This document shows, one piece after another, positions 8,343 through 59,690 of a stretch of DNA of 64,000 bases. Origin of the DNA: Pristiophorus japonicus (taxonomy: Eukaryota); contig NC_091999.1 of the NCBI RefSeq assembly GCF_044704955.1, positions 57,102,001 to 57,166,000 of the forward strand, read 5' to 3'. The notes beneath the pieces were generated by a model. That model did not search any database, was not told the origin of the DNA, and was given only the letters and a program-made list of their open reading frames with translations. A program made the translations under genes and the position numbers. The stretch's first letter is position 1. Each line of letters opens with the position of its first letter.

Positions 8343-8789
8343 ATCTGAGTTCGGTTCTCAATGTTCTGCTCAGTTGTATTCACTTTGTGTTCACTTTTTT
8401 AAACTTCCCTGTAAATTGTTTTCTATGACATTGTTAATAAATCTGGAATCACAAATAAACTAACTTGGAAATTGCTCTGTTTATTTCTCCATGGCTCCAT
8501 TTTCCCTGTCACACTGTGTTTTATTTACCTGAATGGTATGTTTCACCCGTCCTGTCTGGGTTGTGATTGAAACCAAGTCTCATTGGTGAAAGACCCACTG
8601 CGCCACCCAGTGTCCCTGGAGTAAAGACACCTCTACCGCTGCCTTGTTGTATCCGGTCCCAGAGGCGCAATTACTGCACAGCGACCAGATGCACCATGCA
8701 GCCTCCTCGAATATTATGGTCTGTCGCAGTCACATGGCAGGTTCTATCAAAGAGCAGGACTCTGCTCCATCACAGCTTGTCACATTTCA

Positions 8790-9395
8790 GTACACGACAG
8801 AGTAAGTTTCCCTCTACAGTATCCCATACAAATCTCCTAGGGCAGGTACAGCATGGGATTGATATAAGGTAAATGCCCCTATACACTGTCCAATCAAATA
8901 CTCACAGGGCAGGTAAAGCACGCATTAGATACAGAGTACAGCTCCCTCTACACCGACCCATCAAACATTCCAAGTGCAGGGAGAGCACGGTTAGATATAG
9001 AGTAATGCTCCCTCTACACTGACCCATCAAACTCTCCCAGGGCAGGGAAAGCATGGGTTAGATACAGAGTAAAGCTCCCTCTACACTGATCCATCAAACT
9101 CTCCCAGGGCAGGGACAGCACGGGTTGGATACAGTGTAAATCTCCCTCTACACTGACCCATCAAACTCTCCCAGTGCAGGGACAGCATGGGTTAGATACA
9201 GAGTAAAGCTCCCTCTACACTGACCCATCAAACTCTCCCAGGGCAGGGACAGCACGGGTTAGATACAGTGTAAAGCTCCCTCTACCCTGACGAATCAAAC
9301 TCTCCCAGGGCAGGTACAGCACGGGTTAGATATAGAGTAAAACTCCCTCTACAGTGTCCCAGCAAAAGTCGCAGGGCAGGGATAGCACTGGTTCG
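8790..9395 (+). repeat. 67-bp satellite (gggttagatacagagtaaagctccctctacactgacccatcaaactctcccagggcaggtacagcac)
   Basis: Period of 67 nt (gagtaa at ~9000, 9067, 9201, 9335). The same family recurs at 34-45 kb and 57.6-59.65 kb. Confidence 0.9.
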
Positions 9396-9869
9396 AAATC
9401 TGACACAAACACCGTGCACAACCTTGGGGAATCATTCCCAGAGCTCGGTGGTTTTCAGACATACACACGCTCTCTCGACCTTTTTCTGTTATACACCGCG
9501 ACTCTCTCAATTTTCCAGCTGAACAGCTTTTAGACAGTATTTCAGGCAGATAAGATCCGGCACGGCACGGTGCCCATGGGTATTATGGAGCCCTCTCCGC
9601 CGGTGTGCTAGGTGGGGGCAGAGTGTGTGATCGCCGGGGAAAATCCAATTCTGATCTAATACCATTTTAGTTTTGACCAGGCTAAGTATGCGAGTGGAGC
9701 CCTCCTCTCGGGGAGAGCATTTGTACAATGAATTTTGGTTTTGGACTGTCCTCTTTAAATGACTCCCGAGTCCAAACGTTTTAAACAGAACGAGGAGCAA
9801 AATAACCACCTGCAATCCTGCTCTAATCTCAGCAACGCCCATTAACACTGGCACTCTGTCTCCTGTTTC

Positions 9870-11990: not shown

Positions 11991-12384
11991 ACGCAGAGTT
12001 CTACCAGTGATATTCGCTCCCTGTTTCGCTGAACTTTGTGTACACTGTCCTTTACCGTCTGAACTTTCATTCGGAGCCCCCCGACCAAAAAACACCTCCC
12101 ACGGTTTGTGGTCACACCAGAGTATCTTCCCCCGTGTTCCTTCTGTTGCCGCGCTGCTCTTTCTCTAAACCCATGCGGTCTAGGCCTGAAGCCTCCTGCA
12201 GTAGAATGACACTTAGCGTTGGCGGGAGAGAAGATTCATCGGCGCTACTGAAGGGGCTTGGAAGTTAGTTTGGGAATGGATGGAGTTGCTGCCTAATCTA
12301 ATATACCTCCTATTGACAGATGTTCGAAGTTAGAATTAAGAAGCTTATTTTACACGTCTTTAATTAATGAATAATTTTTATGTT

Positions 12385-13135
12385 TGTAATTTCCAGTAAA
12401 AGTCTGGAAAATTAGTTTATAAATGATAGAAAATGGCCGTATAGCTTAAAACGCGTTTTAAAGTGACCAAAGGCTGAGAAGCAAAGCATCATGCTAAACT
12501 GAGCCATTATTATGTTATCCATTTTTGTAACTGCTGATAGAACTTAATTTAGAACTAGAAGGATGGAGGCCAAAATTATTAATCAATCAGATAAAGGTAT
12601 GCAGCATGTACCAGTTCTTATCATAATTTTTTAAAGCCAAGCTCTGTAATGCATTCTGTGTGACATGGTCCGTATAACTGTTCTCAGAGAAGTGATTCCT
12701 GCCGCAGAGATGGAGGGGAGATAGAGATAACATTAAAGGTCAAAGGCAGTAGACAATATGATCTATTGTAAGGGTGAAACAGCAGCAGATTTTCATAGCA
12801 TTTGAATGGGACAAAAATGGTATAAATTAACAGCTATTCTACTCAGAATGCAGTGCGAATCAAGAGAACAGGAGATAAGGAGACGGCACCACAGTCATCT
12901 CGAGAGGTCACTATCGAGAAGTAGGCTGTGACTATAATTTGTTAAGTATTACTTTTTGTAACAGAACATAATTAACTTTATAAAGCTCTGTTTTTTTATC
13001 CATTATACCTGTAGTAAAAGCATTTGTTATGATTTGAACAAAGTCTCCCAGTTTGAATTAAAGATAAACCCTGAGAATAGTTGAATTGCTATAGTTAGCA
13101 AGCGGCAAAAAGCTGGTCAGTATTTAAAAACTACA
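12385..13135 (+). mobile_element. Putative 5' LTR of an ERV-like element
   Basis: Begins TGTAATTT and ends AAACTACA (imperfect inverted termini). TATAAA near 12820, ATTAAA near 13057, and a PBS follows 2 nt after the end. Confidence 0.65.
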
Positions 13136-13137
13136 TC

Positions 13138-13155
13138 TGGCAACCACGAAGGGAC
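13138..13155 (+). promoter_or_regulatory. Primer-binding site, tRNA-Arg(TCG)-type
   Basis: TGGCAACCACGAAGGGAC, complementary to the 3' end (…GTCCCTTCGTGGTYG-CCA) of vertebrate tRNA-Arg(TCG). Confidence 0.8.
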
Positions 13156-13329
13156 AAAACAAAGAGATATTTAAAACAAAATACAATATATTCTTTTCCA
13201 ATTTCATTGGGGACTCTTGTAATTTTTTCTCTCCATTTAAAATCAGGTTGTTGTGTATAAACAGCAGACGCAAGGCAGATAGTTTGATCACCGATCAAAC
13301 CTTATGGTGGGTTAATTTACATCAACCGA

Positions 13330-13990
13330 TAATGACTATTATTTTCGATAAGGAAGCTTAATTAAAATAATTAATTTTAAATTGCCAGAGGAGTGTCTTT
13401 GGGAAGTGCATCAGAAAAAGTTAGAAAAAAGATGTGACGATACGCAAGTGCAGACACTGTTGGTAGATTGCCTAGGGGAAAACCCGAATGTGTCGCTTAA
13501 GGATACGGTCACTTTTACTGATGAACAGATTAAAGCTAAGAAAAAGAAGCTTGGTAAGGCGCTGAGTCTAGTTACCTATGCACCTTCATACTTCGCAGAA
13601 CATGAATCAAAGGTCAAGAAAGAATTAGAGGATAAAATATCGGATTGGAAAAACAAAATTCGGCTAAGAATGAAGATTTGCAAAAAATAGATTCAGACAG
13701 TAAACAGAAAACTGAGATTTTGCAGAGTCAATTTGCATTAGCTACTGAGTAATGCAACAGCTGAGTATCAATGCAATTCACGTAGGCACTGCAATGGAAA
13801 AATTAGGAAATCTTCAGATTTAAAACGAAGATCTAAGCAGAGTGGATAACCGTCTCACCAAACAATTAGAGGACTCATAGAGAGCACTGAGGGAGGCTTT
13901 GCATCGACCCCTGTAAAGGATAAATTATAAAGTTGCACATAGGGGCTCAGAATTATGATGAAGGTAGTGAATTGCTTATGTATGTAATAC
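13330..13990 (+). pseudogene. Gag-like N-terminal coiled-coil remnant, truncated by CR1
   Basis: Starts ~180 nt after the PBS. K/E/L heptad-rich translation (ESKVKKELEDKISDWK...; NEDLSRVDNRLTKQLED) with frameshifts and stops. Confidence 0.5.
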
Positions 13991-15230
13991 TTGCTGATGT
14001 AGGTATAACGCAAATGTACAGACCTCCAAACAGTAGTAGTGATGTTGGGGAGGGCATCAAACAGGAATCCCACGCAAGAGATTATATGTGCAAAGTTAAA
14101 GCACATGGGATTGGGGGTACTATGCTGACATGGATTGAGAACTGGTTGTCAGTCAGGAAGCAACGAGTAGGAGTAAATGGGGACTTTTCAGAATGGCATG
14201 CAGTGACTAGTGGGGTACCGCAAGATTCTTTGCTGGGGCCCCAGCTGTTTACATTGTACATTAATGATTTGGATGAGAGGATTAAATGTAGTATCTCCAA
14301 ATTTGCGGATTACACGAAGTTGGGTAGCAGTGTGAGCTGCGAGGAGGATGCTATGAGGCTGCAGAGCGACTTGGATAGCTTGGATGAATGGGCAAATGCA
14401 TGGCAGATGACGTATAATGTGGATAAATGTGAGGTTATCCACATTGGTGGTAAAAACAGAGATACAGACTACAATCTGAATGGAGACAGATTAGGAAAAG
14501 GGGAGGTGCAACGATACCTGGGTATCATGGTACATCAGTCATTGAAGATTGGCATGCAGGTACAGCAGGCAGTTAAGAAAGCAAAGGGCATGTTGTCCTT
14601 CATAGCGAGGGGATTTCAGTACAGGGGCAGGGAGGTGTTGATACAGTTGTACAGGGTCTTGGTGAGGCCACACCACGAGTATTGTGTACAGTTTTGTTCT
14701 ACTAACCTGAGGAAGGACATTCTTGCTATTGAGGGAGTGCAGCGAAGGTTCACCAGATTAATTCCCGGGATGGCGGGACTGACCTATCAAGAAAAACTGG
14801 GTCAACTGGGCTTGTATTCACTGGAGTTCAGAAGAATGAGAGGGGACCTCATAGAAACGTTTGAAATTCTGACGGAGTTAGACAGGTTAGATGCAGGAAG
14901 AATGCTCCCAATGTTGGGAAAGTCCAGAACCAGGTGACACAGTCTCAGGATAAGGGGCAAGCCATTTAGTACCGAGATGAGGAGGAACTTCTTCACCCAG
15001 AGAGTGGTGAACCTGTGGAATTATCTACCACAGAAAGTATTTGAGGCCAATTCACTAAATATATTCAAAAAGGAGTTAGATGAAGTCCTTGCTACTAGGT
15101 GGATCAAGGGGTATGGCGAGAAAGCAGGAATGGGGTACTGAAGTTGCATGTTCAGTCATGAACTCATTGAATGGCGGTGCAGGCTGGAAGGGCCGAATGG
15201 CCTACTCCTGCACCTATTTTCTATGTCTAT
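13990..15230 (+). mobile_element. CR1 LINE with internal deletion (EN fragment fused to RT C-terminal half)
   Basis: YRPPNSSSDVGEGIKQE joined directly to KVKAHGIGG...SGVPQDSLLGPQLF...KFADYTK...RRFTRLIPG; 3' tail ttctatgtctatgt at ~15220. Confidence 0.9.
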
Positions 15231-15754
15231 GTCCCGTCAGAGATTGGATTCTGTCTCTGTATTAATCTGTGCTTGAACTCCACCCCCACAGACACACACA
15301 GACACATAGGTTTTCAGGGAGCATTTTCGAACATTTTTCCTAATATTGACACGGGCACAACTCTCCTATTCTTTTTCGAGTAAGGCTCTGGGACCTTTCA
15401 CATCCACCCGAGGATGGAGATGAAGCTTCAATTTAACATTTCATCCGAAAGTCAACTGCTTCAACAATCCAAAATTCCCCAGGTACTGCATTTGAGTGTC
15501 AGCCAAGATGACGTTACCAAGTCTCAGAGTGCGACTTAAACACACAACCTCCTGATTCAGTCGAGAATGGAGCCACTGAAAGAAAGCCGATACCAAAGAT
15601 CACAACCGTATTATTTTCCCCAAGCTTTTTAAAATTTCCAGGACGCACCAAATTCATGGTGATGATTTCCATAGACAACTGCACATACACAGAGACATAC
15701 ATACAGGTAGACATACACAGACACACACACAATAACCAAAAATATACACGCATC

Positions 15755-16290
15755 AACATAGAAACAAAAAGAATATTTGCAGGAGTAGGCCATTCGGTGC
15801 TTCGAGCCTGCAGCATCATTCAATAAGATCATGGCTGAACATTCAACCTCAGTACCCCTTTCCTGCTTTCTCTCCATACCCCTTGATCCCTTTAGCCGTA
15901 AGGGCCATATCTAACTCCCTTTTGAATATAACTAACGAACTGGCCTCAAGAACTTTCTGTGGTAGAGAATGCCACAGGTTAACCTCTCTCTGAGTGAAGA
16001 AGTTTCTCCTCATCTCGGTCCTAAATGCCTTACAACTTATTCTTAGACTGTGACCCATGGTTCTCGAACTCACCAGCAATGGGAACATTCTACCCGCCTC
16101 TAACCTGTCCAATCTCTTCAGAATTTTATATATTTCTATGGGAGCGCCTCTCATTCTTCTAAACTCCAGTGGATACCAGCTAAGTTGATCCAGTCTCTCC
16201 TCATATCTCAGTCCTGCCATCCCGGGAATCAAGCTGGTGAACCTTCACTGTACTCCCTCAATAGCAAGGACGTCCTTCCTCAGATTAGGG
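15755..16290 (-). mobile_element. CR1 3' fragment
   Basis: ORF 15849-16232 IPGMAGLRYEERL...RRMRG...FFTQREVNLW; tail catagaaaca. Confidence 0.88.
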
Positions 16291-16886
16291 GAAGTCGACA
16301 GGCACATTGAGAGACAGAGACAAACCGACAAACAGGGAGAGACAGAGAGCGAGATAGAGACAACGAGAGACATAAAGTGTGAGACTGAGAGGGGGGTTCA
16401 GACTGAATGAGACATACACAGAGATGTGTTTGCGTGCTCCAGAAAGAGAGGGAGGCAAATGGTGATGGAATGACAGAGAAAAACACAGGGACAAAGATAG
16501 AGACAAAGACGGAGACAGATAGAGAGAAAGACAGATAGAGAGAGAGGCATAGAGACAAAAACAGAAAATGATGAAAATACTCATCAGGTTGGAGACAGGG
16601 AATAACAGCGACATGGACAGGCAGATCATGGCAAAGAGAGAGCCAGTCAGACAGAGAGACTGAGAGAATCCCATTGGAACAGAACTGGACAGAGTGAGAA
16701 AGAGACAGAGACAAACAGAGTGAGTCAGAGACTCAAACACACAAACAGTTCTCTGAAGAGAGAAAGAGGCAGAGACTGAGCGACGCAGATACATTTCACA
16801 ATCGGCTCAGAGTGTCATAGAAAAATGCTGATTCAACAGGTGAAAATCGGGTACCACTGAACAGGATGGGAGGAAATCTGTGTTAA

Positions 16887-16969
16887 ATTAAGGAGTTGAG
16901 TTCGAACCCACGCGGGTTTAAATCAATTACATTTTAAATCCAATGCCTTAACCACTCGGCAATCCTGGT
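16887..16969 (-). pseudogene. tRNA-Leu(TAA) pseudogene, copy 1
   Basis: Reverse complement ACCAGGATTGCCGAGTGGTTAAGGCATTGGATTTAAAATG...CGCGTGGGTTCGAAC; 83 nt with stem mismatches. Confidence 0.82.
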
Positions 16970-17059
16970 CCTGTCAGCATTCGGATTCTGTCTCTGTGAG
17001 AATCTGGGGTGGAACCCCACCCTCACGGACACAAAGGGTTTCAGTGCGCATTTACGAAC

Positions 17060-17320
17060 ATTTTTAGTAATAGTGACACGGGGGCAGCTCTCCTATTCTT
17101 TTACGAGTAATGCTCTGGGAACGTTCACATCCACCCGAGGTTGCAGACGGAGCTTCAATTTAACATTTCATCCGAAAGTCAACAGCTTCGAGAATGCAAA
17201 ATTCCCCAAGTACTGCAATTGAAAATCAGCAAAGATTATATGCTCAAGTCTCAGGAGTGCGACTTGAACACACAAACTCCAGATGCAGTCGAGAATGCTG
17301 CCACTGAACCAAAGCCGATA
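17060..17320 (-). mobile_element. tRNA-headed DeuSINE-like SINE in the array unit (also ~15330-15590, 19485-19750, 24890-25130)
   Basis: Reverse strand gives a tRNA-like head (GGTTCAGTGGCAGCA...GTTCAAGTCGCACTCC) followed by a Deu-like core (…TTTCGGATGAAATGTTAAATTGAAGCTCCGTCTGC…GGATGTGAACGTTCCC). Confidence 0.65.
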
Positions 17321-17724
17321 CCAAAGTTCACAACCCTATTATTTTCCGCAAGTTTTTTAAAAATGTTCAAGCACATACCAAATTCATGGTGATGATTTCC
17401 ACAGACAGTTGCACATACGCAGAGACATACATACAGATAGACAGACAGAGAGAGACACACACACACAACCAAAAATATACACGCACCAACGGACATGCAC
17501 AGAGAGCCTTCGACATTTCGAGGGAAAGACAGGCTGAAGCAATGTCGCAAATTTGGCTGACTTTTGCGTTTTTCTATCCGTATGTATCGTGAATATTGCA
17601 GATTAATAACAATGAGTAAAAATGTGTCAGTGTTGAAAGGTGTGGCACATTATTCCATCTATCACAGGATCAGTTTTGCAAAGACCTGGTTAAATTGTGA
17701 AATGTAATGAAAAATGCTTAGAAC

Positions 17725-17807
17725 CATAGTCGGCAAGGTTCGATCTTTCGTGATGAAAACCCAATGGATTATCTCGTCTATTGCCTTAAAATCTCGGCCA
17801 CGGCTAC
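17725..17807 (-). pseudogene. tRNA-Ser pseudogene, copy 1
   Basis: Reverse complement GTAGCCGTGGCCGAG...CCATTGGG...CCTTGCCGACTATG aligns with the vertebrate tRNA-Ser (GTAGTCGTGG...) body; heavily mutated. Confidence 0.75.
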
Positions 17808-18012
17808 TGGCTAACTGGCTTGTTAAATGTTACTCAGATAAAACTCTGTGCAACTGATGGCCACAGAATCCTGAAACAGTCTCCGTTTGTGAAAGATCTG
17901 GAAGAGACAATCCCCTCTTGCTGTATTTTTCGTGTTCGAAATTGCTCTTCAACTTTTTAACATTAATCTATACCAGGAAACAGAAGTAAGATTCAACATT
18001 TTGAAAAAGTTT

Positions 18013-18085
18013 CATCCTATCGGGGCATTGAACCCCACATCTCACGCTTGACAAGCAGGGATACTGACCACGAAATTAACAAATA
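18013..18085 (-). pseudogene. tRNA-Asp(GTC) pseudogene, copy 1
   Basis: Reverse strand GTGGTCAGTATCCCTGCTTGTCA...GGGGTTCAATGCCCCGA; degenerate. Confidence 0.7.
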
Positions 18086-19309
18086 TGAATTCTATCAGAG
18101 CAGGAATCGAGCTGTGAACAGAAATGGACACCATGAGAAGTCGACAGGCACATTGAAGGACAGAGACAAACCGACAAACAAGGAGAGACAGGCAACGAGA
18201 TAGAGACAACAAGAGACGGAAAGTGTGAGACTGAGAATGAGAGGCAGACAGCTTGAGAAAAAGACTCAAACGCAGACATATACAGAGATGTGTGTGTGTG
18301 TGTGTGTGATCCATAAAGAGAGAGAGGGAAAGATTGAGAGAAAGACAGTGATAAAGACAGTAACAAGGAGAGAGACAGATAGAGAGAGAGCGGCAGGTAG
18401 AGAGATAGAGAGACAAAGATATAAACAGAAAATTATGGAAATACTCAGCAGGTTAGAGACAGGAACTACCAGCGACAGGCAAAGAGAGACAGACAGGCAG
18501 AGACATAGACAGACAGAGATGATGGGAAAGAGTGAGTCAGTCAGACAGAGAGACTAAGAGAATCCCATTGGAACAGAACTGGACACCGTGAGAAAGAAAC
18601 AGACACATTGAGAAACAGAGACAAACATGGAAACAGGGAGTGACAGACAGCGAGATAGAGACAAAGAGAGACAGAAAGTTTGAGACTGAGAGGGAGGGTC
18701 AGACTGAATGAGACAAAGACTCAAATACATACATACACAGAAATGTGTTTGCGTGCTACATAAAGAGAGGGAGGGAAATAGTGATGGAATGACAAGAAAA
18801 AGCCAGGGACAAAGAGAGAGAAAAAGAGGGAGACAAACAGAGAGAAAGACAGATAGAGAGAGAAACAAGTAGACAAAAACAGAAAATTATGGAAATACTC
18901 ATCAGGTTAGAGACAAGGACGAACAGAGACAGGCAAAGACATGGGCAGACAGAGATGATGGGAAAGAGAGAGACAGTCAGACAGAGAGTCTGAGAGAATC
19001 CCTTTCGAACAGAACTGGACACCGTGAGAAGAATACAGATTGAGAGACAGAGACAAACAGAAAAATAGGGATAGACAGAGTGAATCAGAGAGAGGCGGAC
19101 TGAGAGAGACAAAGACTCAAACACAGAAATACATACACATCTCTCTAAAGAGAGAGAGAGAGGCATAGACAGATACAAATACAGCGAAACAGATACATTT
19201 CACAATTCATTTCAATATCTGCTCAGAGTTTCACAGAGTTACAGAAAAATGCAACTGCAACACATGAAAATCGGGTGTCACTGAGCAGGATGGGAAAAAT
19301 CTCTGTTTT

Positions 19310-19391
19310 AGTAAGGAATGGTATACGAACCCACGCGGGAAAAAGCCACGGAATTTTAAGGCCAACGCTTTAACCACTCGGCCATCCGGGT
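19310..19391 (-). pseudogene. tRNA-Leu(TAA) pseudogene, copy 2
   Basis: Reverse complement ACCCGGATGGCCGAGTGGTTAAAGCGTTGGCCTTAAAA...CGCGTGGGTTCGTA. Confidence 0.8.
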
Positions 19392-20155
19392 CCTGTCATC
19401 AGTTCGACTCTGTCTCTCCGAGAATCTGGGCTTCAACTCCACCCCCATAGACAAACACACACACGTGGGTTTCAGGGAGCATTTCCGAACATTTTTAGTA
19501 ATAATGACAAGGTGGCAACTCTCCTTTTCTTTTTCGTGTAATGCTCTGGGAACTTTTCCATCAAGCCGAGGGTGCAGACGGAGCTTCAATTTAACATTTC
19601 ATCCGAAAGTCAACAGCTTCAAAATGCAAAATTCCCCAAGTGCTGCAGTTGGGTGTTAGCCAAAATGTATATGCTCCAGTCTCAGGAATGCGACTTGAAC
19701 ACACAAACTCCTGATTCAGTCGAGAATGCTGCCACTGAACCAAAGCCGATACCAAAGTTCACAATCGTATTATTTTTCCCTAAGTCTTTTTAATAAGTTC
19801 CAGGACATACCAAATTCATGGTGATGATTTCCACAGACAGTTGCACATACACAGAGACATATATAGAGATAGACAGACACAGAGACACAGACAAACACAT
19901 AACCAAAAATATATACGCACCAACGGACATGCACCGATGCCTCAGACATATAGAGGGAGAAGCAGGCTGTATCACTGTCGCTACTTTGGCTGATTTTTGC
20001 GTTTTTCTATCCTTATGTATCGTCAATATTGCAGATTAATAGAAATGAAAAATAAATGTCAGTCTTTACAGCTGTGGGATATTATTCCACCTATTTCGGT
20101 ATGTGTTTTGCAAGACCTGGTTAAATTGTGAAATGGAATGAAAAATGCCAAGAAT

Positions 20156-20238
20156 TGCAATCAGTAGGTTTCGAACCTGTGCGGGGAAACCCCAATAGAT
20201 TATCGAGCTCATCACCTTAACCAGTCGGCTACGACTGC
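20156..20238 (-). pseudogene. tRNA-Ser(CGA-like) pseudogene, copy 2
   Basis: Reverse complement ...TGGTTAAGGTGATGAGCTCGATAATCTATTGGGGTTTCCCCGCACAGGTTCGAAACC. Confidence 0.8.
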
Positions 20239-20455
20239 TGGTTTGCTGTATTTTAAATTTTACTCAGATAAAACTCAGTCATCTATTTCTGTGCAGCAGC
20301 CGGCCACAGAATCCTGAATAAGTTTCCGTTTGCTAAAAAATCTGGAAGGCAATCTCCTTTTTCAGTATTTTTACTCTTCTATATTGCTCTCGAACTTTTT
20401 AACATGAATCTATACCAAGAAACAAAAGTAAAATTCTACATTTTGAAAAAGCCTT

Positions 20456-20527
20456 CTCCCCATCGGGAAATTCAACTCTGGTCTCCCGCGTGTCAGGCGG
20501 TGATATTCACCATTGTACTAAAGAGGT
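20456..20527 (-). pseudogene. tRNA-Asp pseudogene, copy 2 (anticodon mutated GTC>GAC)
   Basis: 72 nt; reverse strand ...GGTGAATATCACCGCCTGACACGCGGGAGACCAGAGTTGAATTTCCCGATGGGGAG; B box damaged. Confidence 0.8.
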
Positions 20528-21215
20528 ACTGACAGGTGCAGCTTTTTAGACAGCAGGAATCGAGCTGTGAAAAGAACTGGGCACCATGAAAAAGAGACAG
20601 ACACAATGAGAGACAGACAAACAGAGGAACTGACGGGTATGTGCTCTCTCAGAGCAGGAATCGAGCTGTGAACAGAACTGGACACCATGAGAAGTCGACA
20701 GAAACACTGAGAGACAGAGACAAACAGAGAAACAGGGAGAGACAGACAGCGAGATAGAGACAAAGAGACAGATAAAGTGTGAGACTGAGAGGGAGAGACA
20801 GACACAGTGAGAAAATAACTCAAGCACACACATACACAGAGATATGTGCATGCTCTATAAAGAGAGAGAGGGAAAGAGTGATAGCAATACAGAGATGAAG
20901 ACAGGGACAGAGAGAGACACAGAGATAGCCAGATAGAGAGAGAGACAGATAGAAAGAGAGATAGAGATAAAAAGAGAAAATTATGGAAATACTCAGCAGG
21001 TTAGAGACAGGTACGAACAGAGACAGGAAAAGAAAGGCAGACAGGCACAGACATAGACAAATAGAAAGAGACGATGGGAAAGAGAGAGACAGTCAGACAG
21101 AGAGGGATGATGGGAAAGAGAGAGCCAAATAGACAAAGAGACTGAGAGAATCCCATTGGACCAGAACTTTGACACCGAAAGAAAGAAAAAGAATGAGAGA
21201 CAGAGACAAACAGAG

Positions 21216-24200
21216 AAACATAGAAAATAGGTGCAGGTGTAGGCCATTCGGGCTTTCGAGTCTGCACCACCATTCAATAAGATCATGGCTGATCATTCAC
21301 CTCAGTAACACTTTCCTGCTTTCTCTCCATACCTCTTGATGCTTTTGGCCATATCGGCAATATCTAACTCCCTCTTCAACATATCCAATGAACTGGCATC
21401 AACAACTCTCTGCGGTAGGTAATTCTAGAGGTTAACAACTCTCTGGGTGAAGAAGTTTCTCCTCATCTCGGTCCTAAATGACCTGCCCCTTATCATTAGA
21501 CTGTGTCCCCTAATTCTGGACTTCCCCAACATCGGGAATTTTCTTGCTGCATCTAACCTGTTAAGTCCCGTCAGAATTGTTCATGATTCTATGAGATCCC
21601 CTCTCATGCTTCTAAACTCCAGTGACTACAAGCCACTGTAGATCCAGTCTCTCCTCATATGTCAGTCCTGTCATCCCGGGAATCAGTCTGGTGAACCTTC
21701 GCTGCACTCCCTCAATAGCATGAAAGTCCTTCCTCAGATTACGAGACCAAAACTGAACACAATATTCCAGGTGAGGTCTCACAAAGGCCCTGTACAACTG
21801 CAGTATGGCCTCCCTGCTCCGATACTCAAATCCCCTAGCTATGAAGGTCAACATTCCTTTTGCCTTCTTCACTGCCTGCTGTAACTGCATGTCAGCTTTC
21901 AATGACTGATGTACCATGACGCCCAGGTCTCGTTGCACCTCCCCTTTTCCTAATCTGTTGCCATACAGACAATATTCTGCCTTCGTGTTTTTGCCACTAA
22001 AGTGGATAACCTCACATTTATCCACATTATTCTGCATCTTCCATGCATTTGCCAACTCACCTAACCGGTCCAAGTCAGTCTGCAGCCTCTTAGCGTCCTC
22101 CTCACAGCTCACATCGCCACCCTGTTGGCATCATCTGCAAACTTGAAGATATTACACTCAATTCCTTCATCTAAATCATTAATGTATATTGTAAATTGCT
22201 GGGATACCAGCACTGAGCCCTGTGGCACCCCACTAGTCACTGCCTGCTTTTCTGAAAAGGACCCGTTTATTCCGACTCTCTGCTTCCTGTCTGCCAACCA
22301 GTTCTCTATCCACGTCAGTACATTATACCCAATACCATGTGCTTTAACTTTGCACACCAATACGTCTGTGCGACCTTGTTGAAAGCCTTTTGAAAGTCCA
22401 AATACACCACATCCACTGGTTCCCCTTGTACACTATACTAGCTACATCCTCAAATAATTTCAGAAGATTTGTCGAGCTTGATTTTCCTTTCATAAATTCA
22501 TGCAGCTTTGACCAATCCTGTCACTGCTTTCCAAATGCGCTGCAAATTCATCTTTAATAATTGATTCCTACATTTTCCCCACTACTGATGTCAGGCTAAC
22601 CGGTCTATAATTATCCGTTTTCAATCTCCCTCCTTTTTCAAAAATGTGGTTTTACATTATTTACCCTTCAGTTCATACGAACTGATCTAGAGTCGATAGA
22701 CTGTTCGAAAATGATCACCAATGCATCCGCTATTTCTAGGGCCACTTCCTTAAGTACTTTCCAATGCAGACTATCAGGCCCCGGGGATTAATCGGCCTTC
22801 AATCCCATCAATTTCCCGAACACAATTACCTGACTAATAAGGATTTCCTTCAGTTCCTCCTTCTCGCTAGATCCTCGGTGCCCTAGTATTTCTGGAAGGT
22901 TATGCGTTCCTTCCTTCGTGAAGACACAACCAAAGTTATTGTTCAACTGCTCTACAATTTCCTTCTTCCCCATTATAAATTCACCTGAATCTGATTGCAA
23001 GGGACCTACGTTTGTCTTCTCTAATCTTTTTGTCTTCACATATCTATAGAACTTTATTAGGTCCCCAGCAAGCTTCCTCTCATAATCTATTTCCCCCCTG
23101 CTAATTAAACCCTTTGTCCTCCTCAGCTGAATTGTAAATTTCTTCCTGTCCTCAGGTTGCGGCTTTTTCTGGACAATTTATATGCCTCTTCCCTGGATTT
23201 AACACTATCCTTAATTTCCTTTGTTAGCCACGGTTGAGCCACATTCACCGTTTTATTTTTACTCCAGACAGGGAAATATAATTGTTGAAGTTCATCCATG
23301 TGATCTTTAAATGTTTGCCATTGCCAATCCAAATTCAAACCCTTTAAATATCATTCACCAGTCTATTCTAGCAAATTCACGTCACATACCATCGAAGTTA
23401 CCTTTCCTTAAGTTCAAGACCCTAGTCTCTGAATTAACTGTGTCACTCGCCACCTTAATAAAGAATTCTACCTTATTATGGTCACTCTTCCCCAAGGGGC
23501 CTCGCACAACAAGATTGCTAATTAGTCCTTTCTCATTACACATCACCCAGTCTAGGATGGCCAGCCCTCTAGATGGTCCCTCGCTATATTGAGTGAGAAA
23601 ACCATCCCTAATACGCTCGAGGAAGTCCTCCTGCACCGTATTGCTAACTTTTTGGTTAGCCCAATTTACATGTAAAGTAAAGTCGCCCTTGATAACTGCT
23701 GTATCTTTATGGCACGCATCCCTAATTTCTTGTTTGATGCTGTCCCCAACCTCACTACTACTCTCTGCGGATCTGTACACAACTCCTCTTGCGTTTTCTT
23801 CCCTTTGGTATTCCGCAGCTCCACCTATTCATATTCCACATCATTCAAGCTAATGTCGTTCCTTACTATTGCCTTAATTTCCTCTTTAACCAGCAACACT
23901 ACCCGATCACCTTTTCATTTCTGTCTATGCTTCCTGAATGTTGAATTCCCAGCCTTGGTCACCCTGGAGCCATGTCTCCGTGATGCCAATTATTTCATAT
24001 TCAGTAATTGCTGCTTGTGCAGTTAATTCGTCCACCTTATTACGAATACTCCTCGCAATGAGGCACAGAGCCTCCAGGCTTGTTATTTTAACACACTTGG
24101 ACCCTTTAGAATTTTGCTGTAAAGTGGCCCTATTTGATATTTGCCGTGGGTTTCTCTGCCCACCAACTTTACTTTTATTCTTTCACTTCTGCGCCCATTC

Positions 24201-24525
24201 TACTTCCCTCTGTCTCCCGTCGCCCTGCCATATTACTGTAAACCCTCCCCAGAAACTCGAGCAAACACTCCCCCTTGAAATTTGGTTCTGGTCCTGCCCA
24301 GGTGCAGACCGTCCGGTTTCGTTCTGGTCCCACCTCCCACAGAACCGGCTCCAAAGTCCCAGGAACTTGAATCCCTCCCATCTGCACCACACATTCATCT
24401 GAGCTCTCCTGTGATTCCTGCTCCGACTAGCAGGTGGCACTGGCAGCAATGCTGAGTTTGTGACCTATGAAGTCCTACTTTTTAATTTAACTCCAAGCTC
24501 CCTGAATTCAGCTTGTTGATCCTCA
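21216..24525 (-). mobile_element. CR1 LINE, near-complete decayed ORF2 (EN+RT), inserted in the tRNA array
   Basis: ARSIRNKVDEL endonuclease start (~24050), ILDWVMCN/SDH motif, SGVPQGSVL, KFADD, RRFTRLIPG, and tail catagaaaatagg at 21219. Confidence 0.92.
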
Positions 24526-24709
24526 GACACAGTGAGTCAGAGACTCAAACACGTAAAGATATATAGAGCGCTCTAAAGACAGAGAGTGAGAGGCACTTCA
24601 CAATTACATTTCTTGGTCAGTTGAGAGTGTGACAGAGTTACAGTTTCAACAGAAGGCATTCGGGTATCACTGAGCAGGATGGGAGAAAATCGGTGTTAAA
24701 TTCAACAGT

Positions 24710-24792
24710 TACTAGAAGTGGGGTTCGAATCTACGTGGGTATAAAACCATTTGATCTTAAATGCAACGACTTATACACTCGGCCATTCTGCA
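24710..24792 (-). pseudogene. tRNA-Leu(TAA) pseudogene, copy 3
   Basis: Reverse complement ...GAATGGCCGAGTG...TTTAAGATC...GATTCGAACCCCACTTCTAGTA. Confidence 0.78.
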
Positions 24793-25527
24793 TTTGTGAA
24801 CCATCACATTCTGTCTCTGTGAGAATCTGGGCTTGAGCTCCACCCTCACAGACACACGCATACACACAGGTTTTCAGTGAGCATTTCAGAATATTCATAT
24901 AAAAGTGACACGGGGACAACTCATTACTCTTTTTCGAATAATGCTGTGGGAACTTTCACATTCACCCGAGAGAGCAGACGGAGCTTCAATTTAACATTCA
25001 TCCAAAAGTCAACAGCTTCAACAATGCAAAATTCCCAAGTACTGCACTTGAGTGTCAACCAAGATTACAAGCTCAAGTCTCAGGAGTGGGACTTGAAGTC
25101 GAAAATGCTGTCGCTGTAGCAAAGCCGATATCAAATGTCACAACCGTATTATTTTCCCCAAATCTTTTTTAAAACTTCCAGGACATACCAAATTCATGGT
25201 GATGATATCCACAGACAGTTGCGCATACACAGTGACATATACACAGATAGACAGACACAGAGACAGAGACGCATACATAACCAAAAATATAGATGCACCA
25301 ATGGGCATACACAGAGTGCCTTAGACATATAGAGGGATAGACAGGCTGAATCACTGTCGCTAATTTAGCTGATATTTGCGTTTTTCTATCCGTATGTATC
25401 GTGAATATTGCAGATTAATCAAAATGAGAAAAAAGTTTCAGTGTGGAAAGGTGTGGGACGTTATTCCACCCAACCGTTTTGCAGGGAACTGGTTAAAGTT
25501 TGAAATGGAATGAAAAATTTTGAGATT

Positions 25528-25609
25528 CGTAGTTGGCAGGATTCGAACCTGCGCTGGTAAACGCCAATGGATATCGAGTCAATCTCCTTAACCACTCGGC
25601 CACGACTAC
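25528..25609 (-). tRNA. tRNA-Ser(CGA), best-preserved copy (probably a pseudogene)
   Basis: GTAGTCGTGGCCGAGTGGTTAAGGAGATTGACTCGATATCCATTGGCGTTTACCAGCGCAGGTTCGAATCCTGCCAACTACG: 82 nt, intact A and B boxes, T-run terminator downstream; mismatches in acceptor, anticodon and variable stems. Confidence 0.8.
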
Positions 25610-25827
25610 TGCGTTGGCACGTTTTTAAATGTTACTCAGACAAAACTCAATCATTCATTTCTCTGCATCAGAACATCACAGAGTCCTGAAAAAGTCTCCG
25701 ATTCCTAAAAATCTGGAAGAGCCAATATCCTCTTGCTGTATTTTTACTCTTCCATGTTGCATTTGAACTTTTAATATGAATCTATACCGAATAACATAAG
25801 TACAATTCTACATTTCGAAAATGCTTC

Positions 25828-25872
25828 CTCCCACCTGACAGGTGGGGATACTCACGACTATATTAACGAGGT
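25828..25872 (-). pseudogene. tRNA-Asp pseudogene, copy 3, with internal deletion
   Basis: The 5' half (CCTCGTTAATATAGTCGTGAGTATCCCCACCTGTCA) is retained; the T-arm is missing. Confidence 0.72.
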
Positions 25873-26631
25873 ACTGACGGGTGTGGATTTTGAGTCAGCA
25901 GGAATTGAGCTGTGAAAAGAACTTGACACCATGAGAAAGAGACAGACACATTGAGAGACAGACACAAAAACAGAAACAGGGAGAGACAGACAGCGAGCTA
26001 GAGATATAGAGAGCAAGTGTGAGACCAAGAGAGATAGGCAGACTGAGTGAGACAAAGACTCAAACAGACACATACACAGAGATGTGTGTGTGTGTGCTCC
26101 ATAAAGAGAGGGAGGCAAATAGTAATGGAAAGCCAGAGACAAAGACAAAGCTATGGACAAAGAGAGCGACAAAGAGAGAGAGAGAGAAATAATGAGACAT
26201 AAGATAGAGAGAGAGAGAGAGATAAAAACAGAAAATGATGGAAATACTCAACAGGTTAGAGACAGGGTCGAACAGAGACAGGCAAAGAGAGACAGACAGG
26301 CAGAGACATAGACAGACAGTGATGATGGGAAAGATAGAGACAGTCAGACAGAGAGACTGAGAGAATCCCATTGGAACAGAACTGGACACTGTGAGAAAGA
26401 CACAGGCAGATTGAGAGACCGAGACAAACAGAAAAACAGGGAGAGACAGAGTGAGTCAGAGAGAGGCAGAGTGAGGGAGACAAAGACTCAAACACGCAAA
26501 CACATGCACAGATCTCTAAAGAGACAGAGATAGAGAGTGAGGCAGAGACTGAAAGACACAGATACATTTCACGATTCCATTTCTTTATCGGTTCAGAATG
26601 TCACAGAGTTACAGTAAAATGCAGATTCAAC

Positions 26632-27120
26632 AGATTCTTCCTGTAGTTGTACAGTGCCTTGGTGAGGCCTCACTTGGAATATTGTGTTCTGTTTTGATCT
26701 CCTAATGTGAGGAACGACGTTCTTGCTATTGAGGGAGTGCAGCGAAGGTTCACCAGACTGGTTCCCGGGATGGCTGGAATGTCATGTGAGGAGAGACTGG
26801 ATCAACTGGATTTTTATACATTGGAGCTTAGAAGGATGAGAGGGGATTTCATAGAAACATAAAGATTCTGACGGGACGGGACAGGTTAGATGCAGGTAGC
26901 TTGTCCCGATGTTGGGGAAGTCCAGAACCAGGGGACAGAGCCTTAGGACAGCCATGTCAACGTGGTGCAAATTATATCATATTCATTAATTGCTGCCTGT
27001 GCAGTTAATTCGTCCACCTTATTACGAATACTCCTCGCATTGAGGCACAGAGACTTCAGGCTTGTCTTTTTAACAACTTTGTCCCTTGAGACTTTTGCTG
27101 TAATGTGGCCCTTTTTGAAA
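26632..27120. mobile_element. CR1 fragments: RT end on + (26632-26945) abutting EN start on - (26945-27120)
   Basis: RPHLEYCV/RRFTRLVPG on +; CLNARSIRNKVDELTAQAAINEYDII on -. Confidence 0.82.
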
Positions 27121-28270
27121 GGAATGACAAGGGTGTATGCTGTTACAGGAGGATGTGAGGGGAAACAAACATAATACAAGGGGAAGAGTACATCCGCGAT
27201 GGACCAGTACGAGATCAAAAAGAATGGAAATATAAGGGGAATATCTTTATCCGTGTGCTGGAGAGAAGGAAACCTAACTATAGGCCCTCACCCAGTGGGA
27301 GACGGTAGCAAGGATAGCTGCGGGTTTGACAATACTACGAAAGGATGTGTCATTGGAATAAACCCTGCCCGAACCAAACCCACACATTACACCTCTGAAG
27401 TGCGAGGAGAATATTGTGTGATAACTAGCCTGGGATCTTATGTTACTCCAGGAATGTCGGTGGCAGTGAGAAGAGCAAACATGACATGCCAGGAAGAAAA
27501 TGACATGAAATATAAGCGATGAGATTGAGCAAGATATTGATGTTTACATGGAAGAGCAATTCCCCTGTTATTTGAAGATTTAACTGAGCTCAAGAAATAA
27601 CATTAAAAGATATCAAGAGCTGAAGGATAAAGCAAAAGATCTGGACAGTGAAATAAAGTAAAACTTGAAAAACCCGCCTTGGTACAAGAGATTATACATC
27701 CCTGGATAAGGCTCCTTTCCCTTACCCTAGTGTCAGTAAAGATAGTAATAGCCTTGAGTTGGTTGGTGATGTTATGTAACAAGTGCAAAGATAGGCAAGG
27801 CTTACCCGAGCAAAGTTACAAGATAGGGATTAGAATTATATCCCATGTGTTAGTCCTAGTGCTGCTGATAGTGGTGTTGATGCTCCTGGGAGATTGTGCA
27901 GGCAGATACAAGAGATACAGGAAGAAGAGTTTGGCCAAGGCCCGTAACCAAGAATGCAGAAAGCCTTTGCTTAAACCAAAGAGGGTTAATCAAACAAAAA
28001 GACGGCATGAACACATGAACTGAGTCGTGAGTGTCCCAATCCTATCGCCTGATAAACGAAACCGAGGCGGAAGACATAGGAATCAGGACAGGATAAGGCA
28101 AGGAAAGGAAGATTATTGTTCATGGTGGGATATTTTTAAGGTCTGGTCACCTGAAGCCTACGCAGTCCTCAAATCGATGTGGCATTTAATTGAGGTAGTA
28201 ATGGTCGTGGAAGGGATATGTATCGTGATCCAACTATATGAAAAGCAAACAGCTTTGTTAATTATGTAAT
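27120..28270 (+). pseudogene. ERV env-like remnant (Cys-rich ectodomain, heptad, TM) plus extra TM modules
   Basis: GISLSVCWREGNLTIGPHP..SCGFDNTTKGC...GEYCVITSLGSY; heptad ELKDKAKDLDSEIK; NPPWY; TM HPWIRLLSLTLVSVKIVIALSWLVMLC; later hydrophobic segments; lies upstream of a PPT and LTR. Confidence 0.55.
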
Positions 28271-28543
28271 GTAGGCATGATAGGGAGGCGAGTGACTTTG
28301 GAACGCGTTAGGGAAACAACCTAGACCCCAGAGCTTATGCACTGTCTGTACAAAAAGAAAGATGAGTGGCGTGCCAATATCCCAGGGAAATGGTCTGGGG
28401 CAGTATGTAAAGACTCCGCAAAAGATGGAACGACAATTGATCCCAGGGATATGGACTTGATATCATCATTTCGAGCAGATGGCTCAGAACATATATATGG
28501 TCAGCAGATTATTTAGAAATAATCAGGGATCAACAGGAGGGAC

Positions 28544-29070
28544 TAAAAGGGCAGATTACAAATTGTAATTTCAATTAATAATAATAATTGCGATATTTTA
28601 AAATGGAATTAACAGGTTTTTAAATTGGAAACCACAGCCTGTTTTTCAGACTGTGGGAAGCATGTGTGGGATGCCTTCCACAGAGGAGCAGATGTTCCAA
28701 TTCATAGACCAAAGGCCTTGGGAGCTGGGCACGGACACAAATAACATAGAATTTCAATTGTATAACAAAATAAGAGTTAAATAAAAAGAATCATCACAAC
28801 ATGTATTTGGAATTGCCAATTAAGGCATATAGAAGCCAGATTGGAGGAGGCGCTGTACCAATCAATCATGTATTAATCAATCAGCATGTATTAAATGTAA
28901 CTTTCGTAATTACTGAATGCTATCATCTGAAACTGTATAAAGTAAGATGTCTCTGGCTCTAGTTCGAGCGTTCCTTCAAGAATAGCTTCCCTGCCGGCTT
29001 GTATTAATAAAATTTGCATTTACTTTAAGGCTAACAGAATCCTTGTGGTGGGTTGAAGTTAACCCTAACA
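28544..29070 (+). mobile_element. Putative 3' LTR preceded by a polypurine tract
   Basis: AGGAGGGAC at 28535-28543; CCAAT near 28858, TATAAA near 28936, AATAAA near 29007; ends CCCTAACA. Confidence 0.65.
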
Positions 29071-29074
29071 ATGT

Positions 29075-29460
29075 TAGAGAGAAAGGGAGAGGTGGAGGGG
29101 CTCGACGAGGTTAGAGAGATAGGGAGGGGTGTCGGGCTGGAGGAGGGTACAGAGATAGGGAAGGGTGTAGGGCTGGAGGAGGTTACAAAGATATGGAGAG
29201 GTGTAGTGGCTCAAGGAGGTTAGAGAGATAGGGAGGGGTGTAGGGCTGGAGGAGTTTACAGAGATAGGGAGGGCTGTAGGGCTGGAGGAGGTGACAGAGA
29301 TAGGGAGGGCTGTACGGCTGGAGGAGGTCACAGTGATAGGGAGGGGTGTAGGGGCTGGAGGAGGTAACAGAGATAGGGAGGGGTGTAGGGTCTGGAGGTG
29401 GTTACAGAGATAGGGAGGGTGTAGGGGCTGGAGGAGGTTACAGAGATAGGGAGGGGCGGG
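29075..29460 (+). repeat. ~36-bp purine-rich minisatellite (gagatagggaggggtgtaggggctggaggaggttaca)
   Basis: About 10 units; the reverse strand matches the L2-like ORF2 end motif PPYLCNLLQP. Confidence 0.88.
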
Positions 29461-34040: not shown

Positions 34041-34586
34041 CTGTCTAACCCGTACTGTACCTGCCCTAGCAGTTATTGATTGGATAGTGGAGAGCAAGTT
34101 TTTCTCTCTATCTACTCCGTGCTGCATCTTTCCACGGAGTGTTTAACAGGAGAATGCAGGGTGAGCTTTACTCAGTATCTAACCCGTGTTGTTTCTCCCC
34201 TGGGTGTGTTTGATGGATAGTGTCAGGGAGCTTTACATTGTATGTAACCCGTGCTATACCTGCGCTGGGAGTATTTGATGGGTCAGTGTTGCAGGAGTTG
34301 TACTCTATATTTAACCCATGCCGTAACTGCGATGGGAGTGTTTGATGGATCAGTCTATGGGGAGCTTTACTGTCTGACTAACCCCTGCTGCGCCTATTGT
34401 GCGAGTGTTTGATGGGACAGTGCAGCGGGAGTTGAATTCTGTATCTAACCAATGTTGTACCTACCCTGGGAGTGTTTGGGACAGGCGAGAGGGAGATTTA
34501 ACCTTCAATAACCAAAGCTGCATCTGCCTGGGAATGTCTGGTGAGACATTGTAGAGGGAGCTTTACTCTGCATCTAACCTGTGAAA

Positions 34587-35250
34587 TCATCATCATCATC
34601 ATCATAGGCAGTCCCTTTGAATCGAGGAAGACTTGCTTCCACACCTGAAGTGATTAATTTGGTGACTGAACAGTCTAATACGAGAGCCACAGACTCTGCC
34701 ACAGGTGGGACAGATAGTCGTTGAAGGAAGGGGTGAGTGGGACTGGTTTGCAGCACGCTCTTTCCACTGCCTACACATGTTTTCTGCATGCGCTTGGCGA
34801 TGAGACTCCCGGATGTACTTCCTCCACTAAGGGTGGTCTTTGGCCAGGGACTCCCAGATGTCAGTGGGGATCTCGCATTTTATCAGGGAGGCTTTGAGGG
34901 TGTTCTTGTAACGTTTCCGCTGCCCACCTTTGGCTCATTTTCCGTGAAGAAGTTCCGCATAGAGGACTTGCTTTGGGAGTCTCGTGTCTGGCATGCGAAC
35001 TATGTGGTCTGCGCAGCGGAGCTAATCGAGTGTGGTCAGTGCTTCAATGCTGGGGCTGTTAGCCTGGTCTAGGAAGCTAATGTTGGTGTGCCTGTACTGC
35101 CAGGTGATTTGTAGGATTTTGCGGAGACATTGTTGGTGATATATCTCCAATGAGAAAAAGTGTCTACTGTACATTGTCCATGCCTCTGAGACATACAGGA
35201 GGGCGGGTATTACTACAGCCCTGTAGACCATGAGCTTGGTCGTACCTGCC
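34587..35250 (-). mobile_element. RTE-clade LINE 3' fragment
   Basis: (tca)n tail at 34587; TKLMVYRAVVIPALLY.SE.W, LRKILQI.W, IEALTTLD. Confidence 0.85.
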
Positions 35251-35331
35251 CAGTGAATGGTTAATGAGACAGTGAAGAGGAAACTTATCTCTGTCTCCAA
35301 CCCACGCTGTATCTGTCCTGGGAGTGTTTGA

Positions 35332-45975: not shown

Positions 45976-45979
45976 GAGT

Positions 45980-51790: not shown

Positions 51791-51919
51791 CCAGAGTGAA
51801 CCACCCGGGGAATATGCCCTATCTCCATCAGCAGCGAGGCAACACGCGGGAAGGGCTGGTTCCCAGAGAGCACCTCCCTGTGCGAAGAGGCTCCCCGCCA
51901 ATGAGCGGAGCGAGCACGG

Positions 51920-59650: not shown

Positions 59651-59690
59651 TCAAATGTTATTGAAAGAGGAGCAGGCTCAGGGGTCCGGG

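What the first reader, a model, noticed from the sequence alone, without database searches (positions are those of the whole stretch)
12385..29070. 16.7-kb provirus-like frame with matching 5-bp flanks enclosing a tRNA gene array
Seen: LTR-PBS(Arg)-gag start on the left and env-PPT-LTR on the right, in the same orientation. ATGTT lies immediately outside both ends (12380-12384 and 29071-29075). No pol remnant is recognisable; the interior is CR1 / tRNA array / CR1. The two LTRs do not align overall, but share exact words in the same order (GACCAAAGGC at 12465 and 28707; TATTAATCAATCAG at 12577 and 28871; CAGCATGTA). Inference: either one old provirus whose core was replaced by a tRNA cluster through CR1-CR1 recombination, or two related ERVs joined by rearrangement. 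The 5-bp match could be coincidental in AT-rich DNA.
Basis: partly seen in the sequence, partly recalled or inferred. Interest (0 to 1): 0.7.

Follow-up and report, generated by a model that had tools for sequence, protein, structure and literature searches.

The report
Provirus-wrapped tRNA array, hybrid copy
This stretch is a hybrid of two unrelated dead retroviruses around decayed tRNA genes, likely made by deletion from a unit copied well over a hundred times on one chromosome, in which a block of tRNA genes sits inside the envelope gene of what was likely one provirus; the copies examined share their flanking DNA, so they were duplicated passively rather than jumping.

Summary
The frame is real but is not one provirus. 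The left LTR belongs to an Arg-primed family (4-bp target duplications), the right LTR to a Ser-primed family (5-bp duplications); each has self-paired proviruses elsewhere. The left ATGTT lies inside the left LTR, which starts at 12297; the right ATGTT is a variant first word of a satellite. Ten such hybrids were found, with shared flanks (about 60 kb at 98.6-99.5% in three), so they are segmental duplicates. The better finding is the parent unit: on the same chromosome the Ser-primed element is cut at one env position, without loss, by an 18-34 kb insert of CR1 pieces and Leu/Ser/Asp tRNA repeats; the two junctions occur 190 and 145 times. The left CR1 joins ends of two different insertions, so CR1-CR1 recombination likely brought the array in. 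This window's lineage then likely lost the true 5' half by deletion. The parent's outer target duplication does not match. One of nine tRNA copies here passes ARAGORN. Not found before by this scan. A new variant of a known kind (LTR-flanked tRNA repeats); modest interest.

The parts
12297..13135 (+).
   Evidence: Alignment to dispersed solo and paired LTRs with 4-bp target duplications
12380..12384 (+). ATGTT, internal to the left LTR; not a target-site duplication
   Evidence: Present at this place in 19 of 21 dispersed family LTR starts
13138..13155 (+). Primer binding site, tRNA-Arg type
   Evidence: Sequence; Arg assignment recalled from known tRNA-Arg 3' ends, not from a call; 12 genome matches of LTR end plus PBS
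13156..13911 (+). Leader and broken gag-like start of family L; ends at a rearrangement junction
   Evidence: 82-86% to dispersed L proviruses L177, L181 up to 13911; no Pfam hit, gag by position
13912..14014 (+). 103-bp piece of the 3' region of a third ERV family (P)
   Evidence: 74-80% to P loci L081, L126, L129, L131, L133, L135, L259
14015..15232 (+). CR1 LINE with an internal deletion at 14067/14068; 3' tail abuts a tRNA repeat
   Evidence: RVT_1 E 4.7e-11; map on a full-length CR1 copy
15233..21207 (-). Decayed tRNA repeats (2.3-2.5 kb unit, GA-rich spacer) with a CR1 3' piece at 15755-16292
   Evidence: Self-comparison, units 75-83% alike
16891..16969 (-). tRNA-Leu(TAA)-derived copy, decayed
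   Evidence: fails ARAGORN default
17725..17807 (-). tRNA-Ser(AGA)-derived copy, decayed
18012..18085 (-). tRNA-Asp(GTC)-derived copy, decayed
19314..19391 (-). tRNA-Leu(TAA)-derived copy, decayed
20156..20238 (-). tRNA-Ser(AGA)-derived copy, decayed
20455..20528 (-). tRNA-Asp(GTC)-derived copy, decayed
21208..24525 (-). CR1 'B', 5'-truncated, both ends in a tRNA repeat; same 5' breakpoint as the left CR1 of the parent unit
24524..26635 (-). Third tRNA repeat: Leu copy 24710-24790, Ser copy 25528-25609, truncated Asp copy 25836-25871
25528..25609 (-). Only copy passing ARAGORN and Rfam; Ser(AGA)-type body, anticodon reads CGA, stem mismatches; likely a pseudogene
   Evidence: cloverleaf not recovered, z -1.25
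26636..26948 (+). CR1 piece lacking its 3' end
26954..27115 (-). 5' end of the CR1 insertion that interrupts env; junction shared by 145 genome places
27116..28543 (+). 3' part of env and 3' region of the Ser-primed family (R), broken; purine tract at 28535-28543
   Evidence: 80-81% to self-paired R proviruses L136, L142
28544..29070 (+). 3' LTR of family R
29071..29460 (+).

Best explanation
The frame is a hybrid of an Arg-primed ERV's 5' end and a Ser-primed ERV's 3' end around decayed tRNA repeats, likely formed by two deletions from a parent unit in which a CR1/tRNA block interrupts the Ser-primed element's env at one position, and it was copied with its flanks by segmental duplication. 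Steps: (1) shown: a CR1 end lies on each side of one env position of family R, with a 3-base overlap and no loss. (2) inferred: this CR1 recombined with a CR1 sitting in a Leu/Ser/Asp tRNA array, which placed the array inside the provirus. (3) inferred: an exchange with another R LTR lying in a satellite replaced one outer flank. (4) shown: the unit is amplified on one chromosome (190 left and 145 right junctions). (5) shown as junctions, inferred as deletions: family L gag was joined to family P 3' sequence, which normally lies about 9 kb upstream of the R 5' LTR, and P was then joined to a CR1 at the array, removing the R 5' half. (6) shown: ten such hybrids exist, with shared flanks. No function is needed; the window's tRNA copies are decaying.
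For: Separate families: Ser-type PBS after R 5' LTRs on many contigs, self-paired R proviruses with 5-bp duplications (L136, LTRs 97.3%; L142, 95-96%); L family self-paired provirus L177/L178 (LTRs 91.8%, 4-bp duplication) and 4 solo LTRs with exact 4-bp duplications; no DNA or tblastx match between L-family 3' regions and the window's env. Parent unit: 10 of 10 picked pairs end the 5' half at internal position 4395 and resume at 4393; walking upstream from 10 right-LTR loci not chosen for this, 7 reach an R 5' half; 21 of 87 listed right junctions have a listed left junction 18-34 kb upstream on the same strand, 0 for opposite strand, 0 for reversed order; interiors are tRNA repeats and CR1. 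Chimeric CR1: the left CR1 has its tail at env but its 5' end at the same CR1 position and tRNA-repeat position as window CR1 B, whose two ends both lie in the repeat. Passive copying: 30 of 30 left and 30 of 30 right LTR loci share flanks; copies B, C, D match the window over about 60 kb at 98.6-99.5%, G at 92.5-97.8%. Intermediate L-gag/P junction without an array exists (L063). Short-read contigs bridge the gag/P junction.
Against: The parent's outer flanks are not a target duplication (5' flank in an old CR1, 3' flank in the satellite), its two LTRs are only 86-89% alike, share one private column, and one clade is neither shown nor rejected (p-AU 0.31); both reciprocal flank junctions are missing. 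No crossover point is visible along the left CR1 (78-89% to B throughout), and the right junction needs an extra deletion. 3 of 10 upstream walks did not reach an R 5' half within the 10-40 kb read, and only 21 of 87 junctions paired in the partial lists. One L-L pair (L156/L240) is 82% alike without a duplication, and two solo L LTRs have mismatched duplications. The P/CR1 junction is crossed by contigs with under 31 letters on one side.
Confidence: 0.8

Rival explanations
1. The window's two LTRs are the ends of one old provirus whose core was replaced, and ATGTT is its target duplication.
For: Same orientation, PBS and purine tract in place, a faint U3 resemblance.
Against: ATGTT is inside the left LTR; different primers, LTR lengths and duplication lengths; each family self-pairs.
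Confidence: 0.01
2. The bracket is a mobile composite element that carries tRNA genes.
For: Ten hybrids and well over a hundred parent junctions, both orientations.
Against: All copies read share both flanks, over about 60 kb in three; every listed junction is on C23 or small contigs; the one C30 copy has the same 5' flank. Mismatched LTRs could not be copied by reverse transcription as a unit (established retroviral mechanism).
Confidence: 0.02
3. In the parent, the array entered env in one step, as a long read-through RNA ending in a CR1 tail that was reverse-transcribed at the target (5' transduction), and expanded later.
For: One insert with a CR1 tail at one end, a 3-base overlap, and tRNA genes on the CR1 sense strand; no visible crossover.
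Against: Repeats inside are 75-83% alike, as old as or older than the LTR divergence, so several repeats (likely over 10 kb) had to arrive together; the 5' end falls in another CR1 piece of the same orientation.
Confidence: 0.15
4. The parent bracket is two R proviruses, each carrying the same CR1 insertion, that landed on either side of the array and lost their inner halves.
For: Explains the mismatched outer flanks and the lack of shared private LTR columns.
Against: Needs dispersed R copies with this CR1 insertion; the 100 of 190 and 100 of 145 junction places listed include none on C1-C22.
Confidence: 0.12
5. The near-identical copies are assembly or haplotype artefacts.
For: Some copies are over 99% alike; read depth was not measurable.
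Against: Copies span 86-99.5% identity with nested, tree-like variants and differing internal deletions; a junction is bridged by short-read contigs.
Confidence: 0.03

Closest known systems
Human 1q23.3 tRNA tandem repeat (PMC4041453; passages read)
   Same: Tandem tRNA-gene repeat (includes Leu and Asp) with microsatellites and a LINE piece in the unit, flanked by ERV LTRs of different families.
   Different: There the flanking LTRs are unrelated elements, units are 98% alike and there is one locus. Here the parent's two flanks are consecutive halves of one env, units are 75-83% alike and decaying, and the bracket is amplified over a hundredfold.
tRNA amplification with transposons in the icefish LA region (PMC12527291; abstract and section 7 read)
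   Same: Local tRNA hotspot, rapid copy-number change, transposon-linked deletion of neighbouring DNA.
   Different: No proviral bracket in the parts read; that case deletes host genes.
Clustered, abundant tRNA loci of sharks and rays (bioRxiv 10.1101/2025.06.08.657570; passages read)
   Same: tRNA loci concentrated on single chromosomes, likened there to zebrafish chromosome 4.
   Different: No amplification unit or ERV link in the passages read. The source organism here is unnamed; its likeness to cartilaginous fish is my impression.
Lokiretroviruses (PMC7947760; passages read)
   Same: LTR-gag-pol-env plan; env relatives show a basic cleavage motif, a hydrophobic stretch, long predicted helices and a membrane anchor; family L has an RNase H after the RT region.
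   Different: No match to the fusion-protein family PF00523 was obtained; no RT tree was made; that paper lists no cartilaginous fish.
LINE-mediated non-allelic homologous recombination and segmental duplication (recalled, no call)
   Same: Chimeric LINE joining ends of two insertions; copies sharing long flanks.
   Different: The cargo is a tRNA array and the landing site a provirus.

Membership tests
Single provirus (window's L-R frame) | Two LTRs of one family, alike over their length | tested here: not met
   Score at shuffle level; lengths 839 and 527 bp
Single provirus (window's L-R frame) | Target-site duplication outside both LTRs | tested here: not met
   Left ATGTT inside the LTR; right one a satellite variant
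Single provirus (window's L-R frame) | PBS/gag and env/LTR from the same family | tested here: not met
   Arg-primed L versus Ser-primed R, each self-paired
Single provirus (parent R-R unit) | 5' and 3' internal halves continuous across the insert | tested here: met
   10 of 10 picked pairs, 3-base overlap
Single provirus (parent R-R unit) | Matching outer target duplication | tested here: not met
   Different flanks; reciprocal junctions absent
Single provirus (parent R-R unit) | 5' and 3' LTRs are each other's closest kin | tested here: inconclusive
   86-89% alike, star-like tree, p-AU 0.31, one shared private column
Mobile composite element | Copies at unrelated sites with their own target duplications | tested here: not met
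   Shared flanks in all copies read
Segmental duplication | Copies share over 1 kb at 90% or more, beyond the element's ends | tested here: met
   About 60 kb at 98.6-99.5% in copies B, C, D
Functional tRNA gene array | Intact cloverleaf genes | tested here: not met
   1 of 9 in the window passes; 68 passes against 177 tRNA-like copies in 21 related stretches
Functional tRNA gene array | Pol III transcription and processing | not testable with these tools
   No RNA holder listed
Lokiretrovirus | Env similar to paramyxo/pneumovirus F (PF00523) | tested here: inconclusive
   No Pfam or PDB hit from fragments or six relatives; model pLDDT 40
Lokiretrovirus | Tether plus second RNase H | tested here: inconclusive
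   L: RNase_H E 5e-10; R: tether-type domain E 1e-10, then integrase. Shared with all retroviruses, so not diagnostic
Lokiretrovirus | RT groups with Loki in a tree | not tested
   Nearest solved RTs: foamy virus for an L piece, MLV-type for an R piece
CR1 LINE | Endonuclease-RT frame and short tandem 3' tail | tested here: met
   RVT_1 hit, tail repeat, full-length copies; the clade name CR1 is recalled, not from a library call

The most novel reading that the evidence does not exclude
A retrovirus primed by tRNA-Ser captured an array holding its own primer gene, and the host kept and multiplied the unit 150-190 times because it yields tRNA-Ser 3' fragments or LTR-driven small RNAs that silence this ERV family and CR1: a chromosome-scale, primer-matched defence cluster holding a few thousand tRNA-derived genes.
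Probability: 0.07. Interest if true: 0.75.

Novelty: new variant of a known kind. Interest (0 to 1): 0.36.

Why it matters
It corrects a tempting misreading (a perfect-looking provirus frame made of two families) and shows, at base resolution, one route by which a vertebrate gains thousands of tRNA-like loci: an array lands in a provirus and the whole unit is multiplied along one chromosome. At 18-19 tRNA-like copies per bracket (three interiors read) and 145-190 junctions, a rough extrapolation is 2,600-3,600 copies, about 4 in 10 passing a standard finder, so tRNA gene counts for such genomes may be largely inflated by decaying duplicates. The junctions give markers for ordering the duplications. 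No function is shown.

Tried and rejected
Empty-site search: no relatives are held and the flanks are co-amplified, so it was replaced by searches for the reciprocal junctions, which found 0 exact and 4 one-mismatch places against 3 in the control and none. I first read the env boundary as a deletion junction; two searches showed it to be a CR1 insertion end. I first took the pol in L063 for family L; two searches showed a third family. CR1-CR1 recombination as the cause of the left hybrid junction: the breaks at 13911 and 14014 are not CR1-to-CR1, so rejected there. Orthology of the window's first CR1 with a copy inside a parent unit: not shown, dispersed copies are as close (92-93%). Env classification: Pfam, PDB and homologue searches gave no named hit; the atlas gave no answer; the fold was too poor to search. 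Expression: no RNA holder listed. Earlier notes of this scan: none near, none by sequence; genome-wide notes concern other elements. No absolute dates given: no rate for this lineage is on hand.
Full report
Setting. The window is G000:C23:57102001-57166000 in a 5.9-Gb genome; C23 is 68 Mb. The repeats look vertebrate, and CR1-rich in the manner of cartilaginous fish; that is my impression, not a test.

The observation. The interior is a 2.3-2.5 kb repeat whose copies are 75-83% alike, interleaved with CR1 pieces. It holds nine tRNA-derived copies, three each of Leu(TAA), Ser(AGA) and Asp(GTC) type. One passes ARAGORN and Rfam; it has stem mismatches and does not fold into a cloverleaf.

The 5-bp match is not a target duplication. 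A motif search gave 141 places for the left LTR. In 20 stretches fetched from other chromosomes the similarity begins at window position 12296-12312, mostly 12299, which puts the LTR start at 12297. ATGTT sits at the same inner place in 19 of 21 LTR starts. On the right, the pentamer is the first word of a 36-bp satellite: ATGTT 14, AGGTT 11, ACGTT 4, AGGTG 1 of 30 copies. One older hybrid reads ACGTT.

Two families. Left (L): 839-bp LTR, Arg-type PBS, a self-paired provirus on C7 with LTRs 91.8% alike and a 4-bp duplication, four solo LTRs with exact 4-bp duplications, two with mismatches; another L-L pair is only 82% alike and lacks a duplication. Right (R): 527-bp LTR, PBS complementary to tRNA-Ser(AGA), 109 matches of an LTR-end pattern, two self-paired proviruses with 5-bp duplications whose env is 80-81% like the window's. 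LTR-to-LTR scores in 9 comparisons were reached by 1 to 60 of 100 shuffles; two of the three shared words are absent from 20 of 20 dispersed L loci, the third is in 10 of 20. The families are distant kin at most: one short internal stretch matches at 81%.

The hybrid is a passenger. Both LTRs pair at eight places on C23, 13.7-16.7 kb apart, and at two older places of about 24-25 kb. All 30 left and 30 right loci share flanks. Copies B, C and D match the window over about 60 kb at 98.6-99.5% (D sampled in three stretches), G at 92.5-97.8% over the 50 kb read. The hybrid-specific junction occurs 8 times, all on C23; copy G has lost it by deletion; the interior of the tenth copy was not read.

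The parent unit. The CR1/env junction at 27115/27116 occurs 145 times, far more often than the hybrid. Many of these have an R 5' LTR with Ser PBS upstream. In 10 of 10 pairs picked from the position lists, the 5' half ends at internal position 4395 against a CR1 tail and the 3' half resumes at 4393; uninterrupted copies read straight through. The three shared bases may be a duplication or microhomology. The left junction occurs 190 times. The 100 places listed for each are on C23 or small contigs. From 10 right-LTR loci chosen before this was known, 7 reached an R 5' half, one lying on C30 with the same flank; 3 did not. In the partial lists (97 left, 87 right, C23 rows only), 21 right junctions have a left one 18-34 kb upstream; both controls gave 0. 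Three interiors, two with small unread gaps, are tRNA repeats and CR1, with 19, 19 and 18 tRNA-like copies and 7, 7 and 6 ARAGORN passes. Over 21 such stretches there were 68 passes against 177 copies, 18 of the 68 with anticodons other than TAA, AGA or GTC.

How the array got in. The left CR1 has its tail at env, but runs past the position where the right-hand piece ends and stops at the same CR1 position, and the same place in the tRNA repeat, as the window's CR1 at 21208-24525, whose two ends both lie in the repeat. Its two ends therefore come from two insertions, which is the mark of CR1-CR1 recombination (inferred; about 0.6 for this step). No crossover point is visible and the right side needs a further deletion, so one-step RNA transduction remains possible. 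Against a simple single provirus: the outer flanks differ, the LTRs are 86-89% alike against 88-93% to dispersed copies, they share one private column, and one clade is not rejected (p-AU 0.31). Both reciprocal flank junctions are missing, as expected if an LTR-LTR exchange deleted them (inferred).

How the window's hybrid arose. Other C23 copies of the L block continue further into gag and pol. The window's gag stops at 13911 and runs into 103 bp of a third family, P; L063 has the same junction without an array. P's 3' region normally lies about 9 kb upstream of the R 5' LTR. A second junction at 14014/14015 joins P to a CR1 whose tail abuts the tRNA repeat. Two deletions thus explain the loss of both L's body and R's 5' half (inferred). 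Short-read contigs of one sample bridge the first junction; the second is crossed with under 31 letters on one side.

Classification. L, R and P pieces hit RT, RNase H and integrase families; nearest solved structures were foamy-virus RT and MLV-type RT. The env has six unnamed relatives with a basic cleavage motif and long predicted helices, as described for lokiretroviruses (PMC7947760 passages; PMC8922424 passages), but no fusion-protein match was obtained and the model was poor. Membership is open.

What is known. An LTR-flanked tRNA tandem repeat is described at human 1q23.3 (PMC4041453, passages); tRNA hotspots with transposons in icefish (PMC12527291, abstract and section 7); clustered tRNA loci in sharks and rays (10.1101/2025.06.08.657570, passages; its supplements were not seen). 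Searches listed no paper on a tRNA array inside one split provirus; I saw listings only for those not read, and the library lacks most subscription journals.

Verdict. The parent unit is a real, unusual and highly amplified arrangement made by ordinary processes. New variant of a known kind; interest 0.36.

Noticed in passing
window 48977-49783 (+): C2H2 zinc-finger array frame of 268 aa, about nine fingers, several degenerate; it is part of the duplicated segment. Another lies in L125, so C23 mixes zinc-finger genes and tRNA arrays.
   Followed up: partly
G000:C23, L063/L081, L125-L135: A third ERV family (P) with RT, RNase H and integrase pieces is amplified on C23 (1596 first-look candidates) and sits a fixed distance upstream of the R 5' LTR.
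   Followed up: partly
L065 and L068, 1733-4001 (-): A fourth element with a related env, inverted, next to a Gypsy-type element, follows the same left LTR in other C23 copies.
   Followed up: partly
L137/L138; C23 26.68, 26.82, 26.96, 28.79 Mb: Tandem R 5' halves 16.9 kb apart, recurring at about 140-kb spacing, a hint at the size of one duplication period.
   Followed up: no
L136, L139, L142, L144: The dispersed R proviruses read are short (about 7 kb) and no RT catalytic motif was found in their frames; the family may have spread as a non-autonomous form.
   Followed up: no
window 25528-25609 and related stretches: The array's Ser(AGA) gene is the isotype that primes family R. May be chance.
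   Followed up: partly
window 39434-42896 (-), 43359-44728 (-), 61680-63745 (-): Broken Gypsy-type, RTE-type and Tx1/L1-type retroelements, judged from translations (names recalled).
   Followed up: no
window 3686-5861, 8761-9428, 34057-35332, 45518-46027, 50342-50935, 51828-52427, 57680-59681: Minisatellites of 55, 67, 54, 27 and 30 bp.
   Followed up: no
G000:C30:17.42-17.47 Mb: One parent bracket lies on another contig with the same 5' flank, so the duplication also moved between contigs.
   Followed up: partly
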